NCBI RefSeq assembly: GCF_009914755.1
Contig: NC_060928.1
Length of the DNA: 64,000 bases
Strand: one strand, 5' to 3'
Source of the DNA: the human T2T-CHM13v2.0 reference genome, Homo sapiens
Positions within the stretch are counted from its first letter, which is position 1. Each line of letters opens with the position of its first letter. Positions 36,640-53,200 of the stretch are shown piece by piece. The notes beneath the pieces were generated by a model. The model saw only the letters and a list, made by a program, of their open reading frames with translations, was not told where the DNA came from and did no database searches. A program made the translations under genes and the position numbers.

Positions 36640-39600
36640 TTTTATTTTTTTAATTATACTTTAAGTTCTAAGGTACATGTGCACAACATTCAGGTTTGTT
36701 ACATATGTATACATGTGCCATGTTGGTGTGCTGCACCCATTAACTCGTCATTTACATTAGGTATATCTCCTAATGCTATCCCTCCCGCCTCCCCCCACCC
36801 CACAACAGGCCCCGGTGTGTGATGTTCCCCTTCCTGTGTCCATGTGTTCTCATGGTTCAATTCCCACCTATGAGAGAGAAGAGTGAGAACATGCAGTGTT
36901 TGGTTTTTGGTCCTTGAGATAGTTTGCTGAGAATGATGGTTTCCAGCTTCATCCATGACCCTACAAAGGACATGAACTCATCATTTTTTATGGCTGCATA
37001 GTATTCCATGGTGTATATGTGCCACATTTTCTTAATCCAGTCTATCATTGTTGGACATTTGACTTGGTTCCAAGTCTTTGCTATTGTGAATAGTGCTGCA
37101 ATAAACATACGTGTGCATGTGTCTTTATAGCAGCATGATTTATAATCCTTTGGGTATATACCCACTAATGGGATGGCTGGGTCAAATGGTATTTCTAGTT
37201 CTAGATCCCTGAGGAATCGCCACACTGACTTCCACAATGGTTGAACTAGTTTACAGTCCCACCAACAGTGTAAAAGTGTTCCTATTTCTCCACATCCTCT
37301 CCAGCACCTGTTGTTTCCTGACTTTTTAATGATCGCCATTCTAACTGGTGTGAGATGGTATCTCATTGTGGTTTTGATTTACATTTCTCTGATGGCCAGT
37401 GATGACGAGCATTTTTTCATGTGTCTTTTGGCTGCATAAATGTCTTCTTTTGAGAAGTGTCTGTTCATATCTTTTGCCCACTTGTTAATGGGGTTGTTTG
37501 CTTTTTTCATGCAAATATGTTTGAGTTCTTTATAGATTCTGGATATTAGCCCTTTGTCAGATGAGTAGATTGCAAAAATTTTCTCCCATTCTGTAGGTTG
37601 CCTGTTCACTCTGATGGTAGTTTCTTTTGCTGTGCAGAAGCTCTTTAGTTTAATTAGATCCCATTTGTCAATTCTGGCTTTTGTTGCCATTGCTTTTGGT
37701 GTTTTAGACATGAAGTCCCTGCCCATGCCTATATCCTGAATGGTATTGCCTAGGTTTTCTTGTAGGGTTTTTATGGTTTTAGGTCTAACATTGAAGTCTT
37801 TAATCCATCTTGAATGAATTTTTGTATAAGGTGTAAGGAAGGGATCCAGTTTCAGCTTTCTCCATATGGCTAGCCAGTTTTCCCAGCACCATTTATTAAA
37901 TAGGGAATCCTTTCCCCATTTCTTGTTTTTGTCAGGTTTGTCAAAGATCAGATGGTTGTAGATGTGTGGTATTATTTCTGAGGGCTCTGTTCTGTTCCAC
38001 TGGTCTGCCTATATCTCTGTTTTGGTACCAGTACCATGCTGTTTTGGTTACTGTAGCCTTGTAGTATAGTTTGAAGTCGGGTAGCGTGATGCTTCCAGCC
38101 TTGTTCTTTTTGCTTAGGATTGACTTGGCAATGCAGGCTCTTTTTTGGTTCCATATGAACTTTAAAGTAGTTTTTTTCCAATTCTGTGAAGAAAGTCACT
38201 GGTAGCTTGATGGGAACGGCACTAAATCTATAAATTACCTTGGGCAGTATGGCCATTTTCACAACATTGATTCTTCCTACCCATGAGCATGGAATGTTCT
38301 TCCATTTGTTTGTATCCTCTTTTATTTTGTTGAGCAGTGTTTTGTAATTCTCCTTAAAGAGGTCTTTCACATCCCTTGTAAGTTGGATTCCTAGGTATTT
38401 TATTCTCTTTGAAGCAATTGTGAATGGGAGTTCACTCATGATTTGGCTCTCTGTTTGTCTGTTATTGGTGTATAAGAATACTTGTGATTTTTGCACATTG
38501 ATTTTGTATCCTGAGACTTTGCTGAAGTTGCTTATCAGCTTAAGGAGATTTTTGGCTGAGATGATGGGGTTTTCTAAATATACAATCATGTCATCTGCAA
38601 ACGGGGACAATTTGACTTCCCCTTTTCCTAATTGAATAACATTTATTTCCTTCTCTTGCCTGATTGCCCTGGCCAGAACTTCCAACACTGTGTTGAATAG
38701 GAGTGGTGTGAGAGGGCATCCCTGTCTTGTGCCAGTTTTCAAAGGGAATGCTTCCAGTTTTTGCCCATTCAGTATGATATTGGCTGTGGGTTTGTCACAG
38801 ATAGCTCTTACTATTTTGAGATACGTCCCATCTATACCTAATTTATTGAGAGTTTTTAGCATGAAGGGCTGTGGAATTGTGTCCAAGGCCTTTTCTGCAT
38901 CTATTGAGATAATCATGTGGTTTTTTGTCATCGGTTGTGTTTATATGCTGGATTACGTTTATTGATTTGCATATGTTGAACCAGCCTTGCATCCCAGGAA
39001 TGAAGCCCACTTGATCATGGTGGATAAGCTTTTTGATGTGTTGCTGGATTCAGTTTGCCAGTATTTTATTGAGGATTTTCCAATCGATGTTCATCAAGGA
39101 TATTGGTCTAAACTTCTCTTTTTTTGTTGTGTCTCTGCCAGGCTTTGGTATCAGGATGATGCTGGCCTCATAAAATGAGTTAGGGAGGATTCCCTCTTTT
39201 TCTATTGATTGGAATAGTTTCAGAAGGAATGGTACCAGCTCCTCCTTGTATCTCTGGTAGAATTCAGCTGTGAGTCCATCTGGTCCTGGACTTTTTTTGG
39301 TTGGTAAGCTATAAATTATTGCCTCAATTTGAGAGTCTGTTATTGGACTATTCAGAGATTCAACTTCTTCCTGGTTTAGCCTTGGGAGGGTGTATGTGTC
39401 GAGGAATGTATCCATTTCTTCTAGATTTTCTAGTTTATTTGTGTAGAGGTGTTTATACTATTCTCTGATGGTAGTTTGTATTTCTGTGGGATCTGTGGTT
39501 ATATCCCCTTTATCATTTTTTATTGCATCTATTTGATTCTTCTCTCTTTTCTTCTTTATTAGTGTTGCCAGCAGTCTATCAATTTTGTTGATCTTTTCAA

Positions 39601-50200: not shown

Positions 50201-53200
50201 TCTTTTCAAAAAATAAGCTCCTGGGTTCGCTGATTTTTTGAAGGGTTTTTTGTATCTCTGTCTCCTTCAGTTCTGTTCTGATCTTACTTATTTCTTGCCT
50301 TCTGCTAGCTTTTGAATGTGTTTGCTCTTGCTTCTCTAGTTCTCTTAATTGGGATGTTAGGGTGTCAATTTCAGATCTTTTCTGCTTTCTCTTGTGGGCA
50401 TTTAGTGCTATAAATTTCCCTGTACACACTGCTTTAAATGTATCCCAGAGATTCTGGTACATTGTGTCTTTGTTCTCATTGGTTTCAAAGAATATGTTTA
50501 TTTCTGCCTTCATTTCGTTATGTACCCAGTAGTCATTCAGGAGCAGGTTGTTCAGTTTCCATGTATTTGTGTGGTTTTGAGTGAGTTTCTTAATCCTGAG
50601 TTCTAGTTTGATTGCACTGTGGTCTGAGAGACAGTTTGTTGTGATTTCTGTTCTTTTACATTTGCTGAGGAGTGCTTTACTTCCAACTATGTGGTCAATT
50701 TTGGAATAAGTGTGGTGTGGTGCTGAGAAGAATGTATATTCTGTTGATTTGGGGTGGAGAGTTCTGTAGTTGTCTGTTAGGTCTGCTTGTGCAGAGCTGG
50801 CTTTAAGTCCTGGACATCATTGTTAACCTTCTTTCTCATTGATCTGTCTAATATTGACATTGAGGTGTTAAAGTCTCCCATTATTATTGTGTGGGAGCCT
50901 AAGTCTCTTTGTAGGTCTCTAAGGACTTGGTTTATGAATCTGGATGCTCCTCTACCAGGTGCATATATATTTAGGATAGTTAGCTCTTCTTGTTGAATTG
51001 ATCCCTTTACCATTATGTAATGGCCTTCTTTATCTCTTTTGATTTAAGTTGGTTTAAAGTCTGTTTTATCAGAGAGTAGGATTGCAACCCCTCCTTTTTT
51101 TTTGTTTTCCATTTGCTTGGTAGATCTTCCTCCATCCCTTTATTTTGAGCCTATGTGTGTCTCTGCACTTGAGATGGGTCTCCTGAATACAGCACACTGA
51201 TGGGTCTTGAGTCTTTATCCAGTTTGCCAGTCTGTGTCTTTTAATTGGAGCATTTAGGCCATTTACATTTAAGGTTAATATTGTTATGTGTGAATTTGAT
51301 CCAGTCATTATATTAGCTGGTTATTTTGCCCATTAGTTGATGCAGTTTCTTCCTTGCATTGATGGTCTTTACAATTTGGCATGTTTTTGCAGGGGCTGGT
51401 ACCGGTTGTTTCTTTCCATGTTTAGTGCTTCCTTCAGGAGCTCTTGTAAGCAGACCTGGTATTGACAAAATCTCTCAGCATTTGCTTCTCTGTGAAGGAT
51501 TTTATTTCTCCTTCACTTATGAAGCTTAGTTTGGCAGGATATGAAATTCTGGGTTGAAAATTGTTTTATTTAAGCATGTTGAATATTGGCCCCCACTCTC
51601 TTCTGGCTTGTAGAGTTTCTGCTGAGAGATCAGCTGTTAGTCTGATGGGCTTCCCTTTGTGGGTAACCTGACCTTTCTCTCTGGTTGCCCTTAACATTTT
51701 TTCCTTCATTTCAACCTTGGTGAATCTGACGATTACATGTCTTGGAGTTGTTCTTCTCAAGGAATGTCTTTGTGGTGTTCTCTGTATTTCCTGAATTTGC
51801 ATGTTGGCCTGTCTTGCTAGGTTGGGGAAGTTCTCCTGGATAATATACTGGAGTGTTTTCCAGCTTGGTTCCATTCTCCCCATCATGTTTAGGTATACCA
51901 ATCAAATGTAGATCTGGTCTTTTCACATAGTCGCATGTTTCTTGGAGACTTTGTTCATTTCTTTTTACTCTTTTCTCTCTAAACTTCTCTTCTCACTTCA
52001 TTTCATTAATTTGATCTTCAATCACTGATACCCTTTCTTCCACTTGATCAAATCGGCTACTGAAGCTTGTGCACGCATCATGATGTTCTCATCCCATGGT
52101 TTTCAGCTCCATCAAGTCATTTAAGGTCTTCTCTACACTGTTTATTCTAATTAACCATTCGTCTAATCTTTTTTCAAGGTTTCAGCTTCCTTGTGATGGG
52201 TTCAAACATCCTCCTTTAGCTCAGAGAAGTTTGTTACTACCGACCTTCTGAAGCCTACTTATGTCAACTCGTCAAAGTCATTCTCCATCCAGCTTGTTCC
52301 ATTGCTCGCAAGGAGCTGCGATCCTTTGGACAAGAAGGGGTGTTCTGATTTTTAGAATTTTCAGCTTTTCTGCTCTGGTTTCTCCCCATCTTTGTTGTTT
52401 TATCTACCTTTGGTCTTTGATGATGGTGACCTACAGATTGGGTTTTGGTGTGGATGTCCTTTTTGTTGATGTTGATGCTATTCCTTTCTGTTTGTTAGTT
52501 TTCCTTCTAACAGTCAGGTCCCTCAGCTGCAGGTCTGCTGGAGTTTGCTGGAGGTCCACTCCAGACCCTGTTTGCCATTATATCACCAGCGGAGGCTGCA
52601 GAACAGCAAATATTGCAGAACAGCAAATACTGCTGCCTGATCCTTCCTCTGGAAGCTTCATCTCAGAGGGACACCCAGCTGTATGAGGTGTCAGTCAGCC
52701 CCTACTGGGAGCTATCTCCCAGTTAGGCTACTCGGGGGTCAGGGACCCAGTTGAGGAGGCACTCTGTCCATTCTCAGAACTCAAACACCATGCTGGGAGA
52801 ACCACTGCTCTCTTCAGAGCTGTCAGACAGGGACGTTTAAGTCTGCAGAAGTTTCTGCTGCCTTTTGTTCAGCTATGCACTGCCCCCAGAGGTGGAGTCT
52901 ACAGAGGCAGGTAGGCCTTCTTGAGCTGCAGTAGGCTCCACCCAGTTCAAGCTTCCCAGCCGCTTTGTTTACCTACTCAAGCCTCAGCCATGGCAGACAC
53001 CCCTCCCCCAGCTAGGCTGCCGCCTTGCAGTTCGATCTCAAACTGCTGCACAAGCAGTGAGCAAGGCTCCGTGGGCATGGGACCCACTGAGCCAGGCGTG
53101 GGATATAATCTCCTGTTGTGCCATTTGCTAAGACCATTGGAAAAACGCAGTATTTGGGTGGCAGTGTCCCAATTTTCCAGATACAGTCTGTCATGGCTTC

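What the first reader, a model, noticed from the sequence alone, without database searches (positions are those of the whole stretch)
37790..51400. Two L1s of different subfamilies share private mutations over about 3 kb: probable ectopic gene conversion
Seen: the two L1s differ in subfamily-type 5' features (a 24-nt 5'UTR block only in the second; ORF1 starts MGKKQSRKT versus MGRNQSRKA) and have different TSDs, so they are independent insertions. Yet both carry the same unusual bases at about 10.61-kb offset: 37793/48410, 37816/48433, 37862/48479, 38199/48811 (VTFF vs recalled consensus MTFF), 38639/49251 (VIQLG vs GIQLG), 38709/49321 (GCPLTP vs GCPLSP), the double change 39605-6/50214-5 (RSLFF vs RSWFF), 40319/50930 (FINQV vs FIKQV), and GCAGGGGCTG near 40785/51393. 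Most are not CpG decay and several hit conserved ORF2 residues. Inference: post-insertion mutations were copied between neighbours by an old interlocus conversion tract. Consensus states are from memory.
Basis: partly seen in the sequence, partly recalled or inferred. Interest (0 to 1): 0.75.

Follow-up and report, generated by a model that had tools for sequence, protein, structure and literature searches.

The report
Neighbouring L1 copies sharing rare variants
Two old, separately inserted L1 retrotransposon copies lying 10 kb apart in the HPGDS gene share about 16 more rare bases than chance allows, but only across their 3' two-thirds, which points to an old patchy sequence exchange or to descent from related rare source elements.

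Summary
Both L1s are full length, on the minus strand, with different target-site duplications. Every listed base pair and peptide is present.

"Private" is only partly right. By exact whole-genome counts, some variants are truly rare:
- TA at 39605-6: 5 copies.
- 39041T with CC at 39080-81: only A and B.
- 37793G with 37816G: 3 copies.

Others are not private:
- 37862C: 511 copies.
- 38199C: 189.
- 37793G: 126.
- 38639A sits on three backbones.

A has a younger-type backbone and B an older-type one. Over 36.9-40.84 kb, A matches B at 26 of 150 sites where B departs from the trunk. In ORF1 and the 5'UTR it matches at 2 of 66. The quartet test gives 19.2 against 7.0 in the middle segment and no excess at the 5' end.

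There is no single young 3-kb tract. B-like sites alternate with backbone differences, identity never exceeds 98%, and every informative transfer runs B to A.

An early, patchy ectopic conversion is my best reading (0.45). Related rare source lineages are nearly as likely (0.35). Ape and monkey orthologues would decide.

Separately, 37793G and 37862C cluster on a megabase scale, on copies of different ages. I cannot explain this.

The parts
36640..42793 (-). L1 copy A: full length (about 6.15 kb) and decayed, with a younger-type backbone. ORF1 starts at 41778 and ORF2 at 40697.
   Evidence: Self-blast, ends and TSD, peptides and broken frames, ORF2 RT match to solved human ORF2p at E=1.7e-147, backbone states.
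36627..36639 (.). Target-site duplication of A, low-coordinate copy. The partner is at 42794-42806.
   Evidence: An exact 13-nt repeat is found only at these two places within 36500-43000.
47278..53428 (-). L1 copy B: full length (about 6.16 kb) and decayed, with an older-type (O group) backbone. It is inserted into an older L1. ORF1 starts at 52389 and ORF2 at 51308.
   Evidence: O-type at nearly all diagnostic sites. Groups with L019/L020/L006/L045 in the ORF1, 5'UTR and 3' trees.
47264..47277 (.). Target-site duplication of B, low-coordinate copy (one mismatch). The partner is at 53429-53442.
36895..40838 (-). Stretch of A (3'UTR, ORF2 and the last ~90 nt of ORF1) that carries B-like states in patches. 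The counterpart in B is about 47512-51446.
   Evidence: 14 A=B states absent from all 17 panel copies, all between 36917 and 40785. 26 of 150 informative sites are B-like. Quartet excess of about 12 sites in the middle segment and about 4 at the 3' end.
40851..42793 (-). ORF1 and 5'UTR of A, with no excess likeness to B.
   Evidence: 2 of 66 informative sites are B-like. Quartet D=-0.13. A and B fall in different clades. A-B divergence is 1.0-1.4 times that of controls.
37700..38149 (-). Window of lowest A-B divergence. It contains 37793G, 37816G and 37862C.
   Evidence: 14 mismatches in 446 sites, 0.41 times the control older-type/younger-type pairs.
45377..45469 (-). HPGDS coding exon lying between the two L1s (context only). 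Both L1s are in sense orientation to the gene.
   Evidence: Annotation supplied with the finding; strand of the L1s.

Best explanation
A and B are independent L1PA insertions. B belongs to an older side group, here called O (with L019, L020, L006 and L045). A belongs to a later stage of the main line.

Over its 3' 3.9 kb, A carries about 16-28 states that match B against A's own backbone. These include states specific to B's group and variants that are very rare genome-wide.

The most likely cause is non-allelic homologous exchange in place, with B as donor and A as acceptor. It would have happened early, when the two were most alike. It left a discontinuous patchwork: either one long heteroduplex with patchy mismatch repair, or several short tracts. 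It stopped where ORF1 and the 5'UTR become too divergent for pairing.

Shown:
- The two are independent insertions.
- A is a mosaic.
- The excess A-B likeness is confined to the 3' two-thirds.
- The informative sites all run from B to A.

Inferred:
- The exchange happened at this locus after insertion.
- Its timing.
- The repair mechanism.
For: 1. The TSDs differ and the flanks are unrelated.
2. Segment trees. A and B are sisters in 38101-40790. B sits with the O group and A with younger copies in ORF1, the 5'UTR and the 3' segment.
3. Sites where B differs from the trunk consensus. A equals B at 26 of 150 in 36901-40850 and at 2 of 66 further 5' (Fisher P=0.0035). Seven control trunk copies match B at 3-10%.
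4. Quartet counts. AB|TO against AO|TB is 19.2/7.0 in the middle, 8.2/3.9 at the 3' end and 7.6/9.8 at the 5' end. Controls are balanced.
5. A holds O-specific states (38328T, 39080C, 39851C, 40032G). No other of about 45 copies with derived c2 states combines these.
6. Rarity genome-wide: 39041T+CC only in A and B among 258 hits, TA in 5 of 7891, and 38709T together with 40319G only in A, B and one other copy.
7. B is O-type at every c2 and c4 site, so nothing informative moved from A to B.
8. A-B divergence is 6.1% against 7.6% for control pairs in the stretch, and at or above controls in the 5' third.
9. The gap between the elements is 4.5 kb. Passages read in PMC8230782 and PMC6598467 put Alu-Alu conversion within about 10 kb.
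Against: 1. There is no contiguous tract. At least 9 B-like patches of 770 nt or less alternate with backbone differences, in places 6 nt apart. Clustering of B-like sites is only mild (runs test P=0.02).
2. No window is younger than about 2% divergence. A's and B's private loads in 36646-38477 are ordinary (51 and 55, against 52 for L097). So nothing directly shows exchange after insertion.
3. L097 lies 670 kb away. It matches A at all 18 sites tabulated in 37427-38475, 15 of them backbone-diagnostic, and carries 37793G, 37816G, 37862C and 38328T.
4. L096, on chr11 and of young type, carries 38639A, 38709T and 40319G. My rough estimate of this by chance is about 0.003.
5. The local haplotype 38639A-38650C-38656T of A occurs in 3 dispersed copies, and B's version in 4.
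Confidence: 0.45

Rival explanations
1. Related rare source lineages. B came from a minor older-type lineage. A came from a recombinant or derived source that already carried those states before it inserted. The two landed 10 kb apart by chance, or because related copies cluster regionally for an unknown reason.
For: - L097 shares A's backbone pattern and four of the shared variants from 670 kb away.
- L096 shares three variants on another chromosome.
- 38639A occurs on older-type (5 copies), intermediate (4) and young (4) backbones.
- CC at 39080-81 occurs in at least 9 dispersed copies.
- Private loads are ordinary.
- Recombinant L1s are reported among young full-length copies, with 35 of 2267 removed as recombinant (PMC13192797, methods passage).
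- In a whole-genome scan, I estimate that about 1-2 adjacent pairs from the same small lineage would occur by chance.
Against: - The carriers of A's or B's local 38639 haplotype appear in none of the lists for 38709T, 40319G, TA, G..G or T..CC.
- No other copy carries more than three of the pair's rare variants.
- For about 10 lineage members, two falling within 10.6 kb has a probability of roughly 1e-3 before selection.
- A source-level mosaic needs just as many breakpoints.
Confidence: 0.35
2. One reading: one old conversion tract of about 3 kb copied post-insertion mutations between the neighbours.
For: A and B are sisters in the 38101-40790 tree, and the shared rare variants span 36.9-40.84 kb.
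Against: - A keeps its own backbone state at 12 or more diagnostic sites inside the stretch (38475, 38650, 38800, 39008, 39307, 39401, 39961, 40199-40245, 40722).
- About 124 B-only sites are not shared.
- Identity is 90-98% throughout.
- Some shared variants are lineage or recurrent variants.
Confidence: 0.05
3. Nothing special: the shared bases are subfamily-diagnostic states or independent recurrent mutations.
For: - Many A=B states that differ from the young majority are common in a random sample (38111T 6 of 21, 38577A 12 of 26, 38656T 9 of 26).
- 37862C, 38199C and 37793G have 511, 189 and 126 carriers.
- 38709T sits on diverse backbones.
Against: - Pair-exclusive states: 5 against 0.41 expected.
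- At least 6 shared rare transversions, where I estimate about 0.08 from the measured carrier frequencies.
- The quartet excess is absent in controls.
- Joint haplotypes are unique to the pair.
Confidence: 0.05

Closest known systems
Non-allelic gene conversion between neighbouring Alu elements (Aleshin and Zhi 2010, seen only as cited in passages of PMC8230782 and PMC6598467)
   Same: Dispersed retrotransposon copies a few kb apart share non-diagnostic mutations. Mosaics of subfamily-diagnostic states occur, and the effect falls off beyond about 10 kb.
   Different: Here the elements are 6-kb L1s. The signal is about 16 sites spread over 3.9 kb in at least 9 patches, and no orthologue comparison was possible.
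Recombinant (mosaic) full-length L1s found in pangenome assemblies (PMC13192797; methods and discussion passages read)
   Same: L1 copies whose segments group with different donor groups.
   Different: Those are young L1HS/L1PA2 alleles called by 3SEQ and BOOTSCAN with clear breakpoints. A is an old copy with a fine-grained patchwork, and a candidate donor lies next to it.
Interlocus gene conversion between close paralogues or segmental duplicates
   Same: Direct repeats a few kb apart and over 90% alike. There is phylogenetic incongruence along the sequence, and the exchange stops where divergence rises.
   Different: There is no stretch of near identity. The expected drop in divergence is weak (0.81 times controls).
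Linear succession of L1PA subfamilies (Khan et al. 2006; recalled, not read, and not found in search)
   Same: The sampled copies form a comb-like ladder. A and B sit on different rungs in ORF1 and the 5'UTR.
   Different: B's group carries states absent from both older and younger copies, so it is a side branch. A mixes those states with later trunk states. I could not name the subfamilies because no consensus library was on hand.

Membership tests
Full-length primate L1 (L1PA) insertion | Flanking target-site duplication and a 3' A-rich end | tested here: met
   A has an exact 13-nt repeat at 36627 and 42794. B has a 14-nt repeat with one mismatch at 47264 and 53429.
Full-length primate L1 (L1PA) insertion | ORF1 and ORF2 (endonuclease and reverse transcriptase) in order on one strand | tested here: met
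   ORF1 and ORF2 start peptides and the FADD box were found. A 322-aa stretch of A matches solved human ORF2p at E=1.7e-147. Both copies have many stops and frameshifts.
Interlocus (ectopic) gene conversion | Two independently arisen paralogous loci | tested here: met
   Different TSDs and unrelated flanks.
Interlocus (ectopic) gene conversion | Relationship changes along the sequence (phylogenetic incongruence) | tested here: met
   Segment trees; quartet D of 0.47 in the middle, 0.35 at the 3' end and -0.13 at the 5' end; Fisher P=0.0035.
Interlocus (ectopic) gene conversion | Shared derived variants absent from all other family members | tested here: inconclusive
   True for joint haplotypes: T..CC occurs only in A and B. 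Single variants have 5 to 511 other carriers, and L096 and L097 share three or four of them.
Interlocus (ectopic) gene conversion | Lower divergence inside the tract than expected from the ages of the copies | tested here: inconclusive
   Ratio to control pairs is 0.81 overall, with a minimum of 0.41 at 37700-38149. Private loads are ordinary in the 3' 1.8 kb. A's singletons are 0.97%, against 0.97-1.87% in peers.
Interlocus (ectopic) gene conversion | A contiguous converted tract | tested here: not met
   B-like sites alternate with backbone differences, giving at least 9 patches.
Interlocus (ectopic) gene conversion | Orthologous locus in an outgroup species showing the unconverted state | not testable with these tools
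   No other primate genome was available.
Subfamily-diagnostic variants | The variant is present in many dispersed copies that share one backbone | tested here: not met
   Not met for TA (5 copies), 37793G+37816G (3) or T..CC (2). Met for O-group states such as 39080C and 39851C. 37862C (511 carriers) is common, but its carriers' backbones were not examined.

The most novel reading that the evidence does not exclude
Single-site L1 variants are clustered on a megabase scale, on copies of different subfamily and age. 37793G has 16 of its 126 carriers within chr4 93.2-101.1 Mb. 37862C has 18 of its first 100 listed carriers within chr3 17.7-26.0 Mb. This would mean a process that acts after insertion and is specific to both region and site. 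Candidates are drive against an ancient recombination-hotspot motif, or regional concerted evolution of dispersed repeats. Part of the A-B sharing (37793, 37816, 37862) would then be a product of that process rather than of pairwise exchange. L1 copies would serve as replicated reporters of past regional processes.
Probability: 0.2. Interest if true: 0.8.

Novelty: new member of a known kind. Interest (0 to 1): 0.4.

Why it matters
If the exchange happened in place, this is a worked example of ectopic conversion between neighbouring L1s inside a gene. It would show that divergence-based ages and subfamily calls of old L1 copies can be distorted by their neighbours.

The case also shows what is needed before calling repeat variants "private". 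Single rare variants recur in 5 to 500 copies, so only joint haplotypes and whole-genome counts can test the claim.

The regional clustering of single variants, if real and general, would matter more than the pair itself.

Tried and rejected
I worked instead with 3-kb loci and short pieces.
   - the chr3 and chr11 cluster members;
   - C4:97341067;
   - the three copies carrying A's local 38639A-38650C-38656T haplotype;
   - the copies carrying CC at 39080-81 without 39041T;
   - the chr5:97.06 Mb copy.

2. The best BLAST hits to A proved a biased reference. They are young, low-divergence copies chosen for likeness to A, which under-counts A-only differences (67 against 135). I replaced them with a pattern-selected chr1 sample and a 17-copy panel.

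3. An early argument, that A is B-like at all 7 c3 sites and at none of the 12 c2/c4 sites, was circular. Those classes had been defined by A's own states. I dropped it.

4. A general T>G excess on chr4 as the cause of the 37793G cluster: 13.0% against 10.1% of private changes. Rejected.

5. General relatedness among the chr4 carriers: 0.51 against 0.56 shared rare variants per kb. Rejected.

6. A parent-daughter relation, or a tandem duplication of A and B. Rejected by the TSDs, the flanks and the 5' third.

7. The search of earlier findings was not open.

8. Aleshin and Zhi 2010 is not held.

9. Khan et al. 2006 did not appear in search, so the subfamilies are not named.
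Full report
**What is there.**
The window holds two full-length L1s on the minus strand. A is at 36640-42793 and B at 47278-53428. They align at 90.6% over 6180 columns.

Each has its own target-site duplication. A's is a 13-nt exact repeat at 36627 and 42794. B's is a 14-nt repeat with one mismatch at 47264 and 53429. 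An HPGDS exon (45377-45469) lies between them, and both L1s are in sense orientation to the gene.

All ten coordinate pairs in the finding carry the same base in both copies. All five ORF2 peptides and both ORF1 starts are as quoted. Solved human ORF2p reads PMTFF, KGIQLGK and GCPLSP at the aligned places. A 25-nt block is present only in B.

Identity in 300-column windows is 76-87% in the 5'UTR, 86-91% in ORF1 and 90-98% in ORF2 and the 3'UTR.

**Are the shared bases private?**
The own genome could be searched.

The 39 best other hits to A 39400-39800 are dispersed copies at 96%, and B is not among the 40 hits listed. For example, 38709 is A in 29 of 29, and 39605-6 is CC in 26 of 29. These hits are biased toward young copies, so I added two further references:
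- 30 chr1 copies picked by a conserved 19-nt flank;
- a 17-copy panel extended to both ends of the element.

Exact whole-genome counts:

| Variant or haplotype | Count |
|---|---|
| TA at 39605-6 | 5 of 7891 matches |
| 38709T | 18 |
| 40319G | 22 |
| 37793G | 126 |
| 38199C | 189 |
| 37862C | 511 |
| 37793G with 37816G | 3 (A, B, L097) |
| 39041T with CC at 39080-81 | only A and B, among 258 hits within two mismatches (first 100 rows seen; all rows with 0 or 1 mismatch seen) |

The 15 other 38709T carriers I fetched sit on old, middle and young backbones, so that variant recurs. 38639A occurs on older-type (B plus 4), intermediate (A plus 3) and young (4) local haplotypes.

So single variants are recurrent or lineage variants. 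Only the joint haplotypes are unique to the pair.

**Is the sharing more than chance?**
- Among 48 copies covering 38100-41100, A-B has 5 pair-exclusive states against 0.41 expected from private loads (P=7e-5). Two near-duplicate copies and 16 short ones were left out. The other pairs with 5 or more all involve one very old copy.
- Quartet counts with seven trunk copies (T) and four copies of B's group (O), giving AB|TO against AO|TB:

| Segment | AB\|TO | AO\|TB |
|---|---|---|
| 38101-40850 | 19.2 | 7.0 |
| 36646-38100 | 8.2 | 3.9 |
| 40851-42784 | 7.6 | 9.8 |

- Putting another copy in place of A or B gives balanced counts.

That is about 16 excess shared sites, all in the 3' two-thirds.

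**Anatomy of the likeness.**
The sampled copies form a comb-like ladder.

B belongs to a side group with L019, L020, L006 and L045. That group carries states absent from both older and younger copies (38328T, 39080C, 39851C, 40032G).

A has later trunk states at sites that changed before and after the middle-stage copies. In ORF1, the 5'UTR and the 3' segment, A groups with younger copies and B with its own group. In 38101-40790 they are sisters.

Take the sites where B departs from the trunk consensus. A equals B at 26 of 150 in 36901-40850 and at 2 of 66 further 5' (Fisher P=0.0035). With gap states counted, the figures are 28 of 162: 20 of 146 B-only sites and 8 of 16 group-specific sites. 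Control trunk copies give 3-10%.

Using the 17-copy panel, 14 A=B states are absent from every panel copy. All of them lie between 36917 and 40785.

The B-like sites alternate with sites where A keeps its own backbone state: 38475, 38650, 38800, 39008, 39307, 39401, 39961, 40199-40245 and 40722. This implies at least nine patches of 770 nt or less. Clustering is mild (runs test P=0.02).

B is of its own type at every such site, so all informative transfer is from B to A. The 5' limit falls about 90 nt inside the end of ORF1. That is where the two backbones become much more different.

**Timing.**
A-B divergence in 36650-40850 is 6.1%, against 7.6% for control pairs. The minimum ratio is 0.41 at 37700-38149. 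Ratios are 1.0-1.4 in the 5' third.

Private loads in the 3' 1.8 kb are ordinary: A 51, B 55, L097 52. A's singleton density is 0.97%, at the low end of its peers (0.97-1.87%). B's is 1.64%, within its peers (1.5-2.27%).

Nothing looks recently homogenised. If there was an exchange, it was early.

**In place, or in the source?**

For exchange in place:
- The donor-like copy is 4.5 kb away and in direct orientation.
- The joint haplotypes are unique to the pair.
- Carriers of A's or B's local 38639 haplotype appear in none of the other variant lists.
- The single direction and the stop at the divergent 5' third fit one homology-limited event.
- Passages read in PMC8230782 and PMC6598467 place Alu-Alu conversion mostly within about 10 kb.

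For a source-lineage origin:
- L097, a 5'-truncated copy 670 kb away, matches A at all 18 sites tabulated in 37427-38475, 15 of them backbone-diagnostic. It also carries 37793G, 37816G, 37862C and 38328T.
- L096 on chr11, of young type, carries 38639A, 38709T and 40319G. It shares nothing else rare with either copy.
- Recombinant L1s are known among young copies (PMC13192797, passages).
- A genome-wide scan should meet a few adjacent pairs from one small lineage by chance (my estimate).

I put 0.45 on exchange in place and 0.35 on related source lineages. The single 3-kb tract and the purely ordinary reading each get 0.05.

**What I could not do.**
- No L1 consensus library was on hand, so the subfamilies are not named.
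- No other primate genome was available, so orthologues could not be compared.
- Supplements of the cited papers were not opened.

**A side observation that bears on the first three sites.**
Of the 126 carriers of 37793G, 16 lie in chr4 93.19-101.11 Mb, including A, B and L097. Eleven local copies carrying 37793G or 37816G were read (nine and three respectively; L097 has both). They have older-type, middle, A-like and young backbones. Their singleton densities range from 0.6% to 2.4%, and they share nothing else.

37862C is clustered even more strongly. Among the first 100 of 511 rows there are:
- 18 carriers in chr3 17.7-26.0 Mb;
- 12 in chr4 4.0-6.6 Mb;
- one 285 kb from the window.

38709T, 40319G and TA show no such regional cluster.

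The random chr1 neighbours L053 and L054, 40 kb apart, also share 7 rare variants.

I have no tested explanation for this. It weakens 37793, 37816 and 37862 as evidence for pairwise exchange.

Noticed in passing
window 37793 and 37862; G000 chr4 93.19-101.11 Mb, chr11 39.78-40.00 Mb, chr6 28.94-29.17 Mb, chr3 17.7-26.0 Mb, chr4 4.0-6.6 Mb: Single L1 site variants are strongly clustered by region. 16 of the 126 carriers of 37793G lie within 8 Mb around the window, on copies of different backbone and age. 37862C (511 carriers) forms other dense clusters elsewhere. The cause is unknown. Some clusters may be local duplications, and the chr3 and chr11 members could not be read.
   Followed up: partly
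L053 (G000:C1:30305033) and L054 (G000:C1:30345282): Two L1 copies from the random chr1 sample lie 40 kb apart in opposite orientation and share 7 rare variants in 3 kb (5.7% divergence). That is as many as most of the A-B signal. A neighbour effect may be general. The flanks were not checked for a segmental duplication.
   Followed up: partly
window 37793 and 37816: Both shared T-to-G changes hit the T just 5' of AA in a TT/AA context. That resembles the L1 endonuclease nick site (recalled motif). The second change also creates a GAAT-GAAT repeat. No test was made.
   Followed up: no
window 45960-46920 and 53430-53586: B sits inside an older, much more diverged L1 (68-72% to A). So this intron has taken nested L1 insertions.
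   Followed up: no
L096 (G000:C11:50647100-50653500): A 5'-truncated L1 with an internal inversion. The part matching A 38041-40748 is direct and the part matching 36633-38029 is inverted, a twin-priming-like pattern. It carries three of the pair's rare variants on a young backbone.
   Followed up: partly
L042/L043 (G000:C1:12.56 and 12.77 Mb) and L062/L063 (C1:34.92 Mb): These are near-identical L1 pairs in the random sample, with 89 and 23 shared rare variants. They are most likely duplicated DNA rather than separate insertions. One of each pair was dropped.
   Followed up: no
window 36571-36596: A run of about 25 T lies 30 nt outside A's target-site duplication. It looks like the tail of another retroposed element next to A. 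It was not examined.
   Followed up: no
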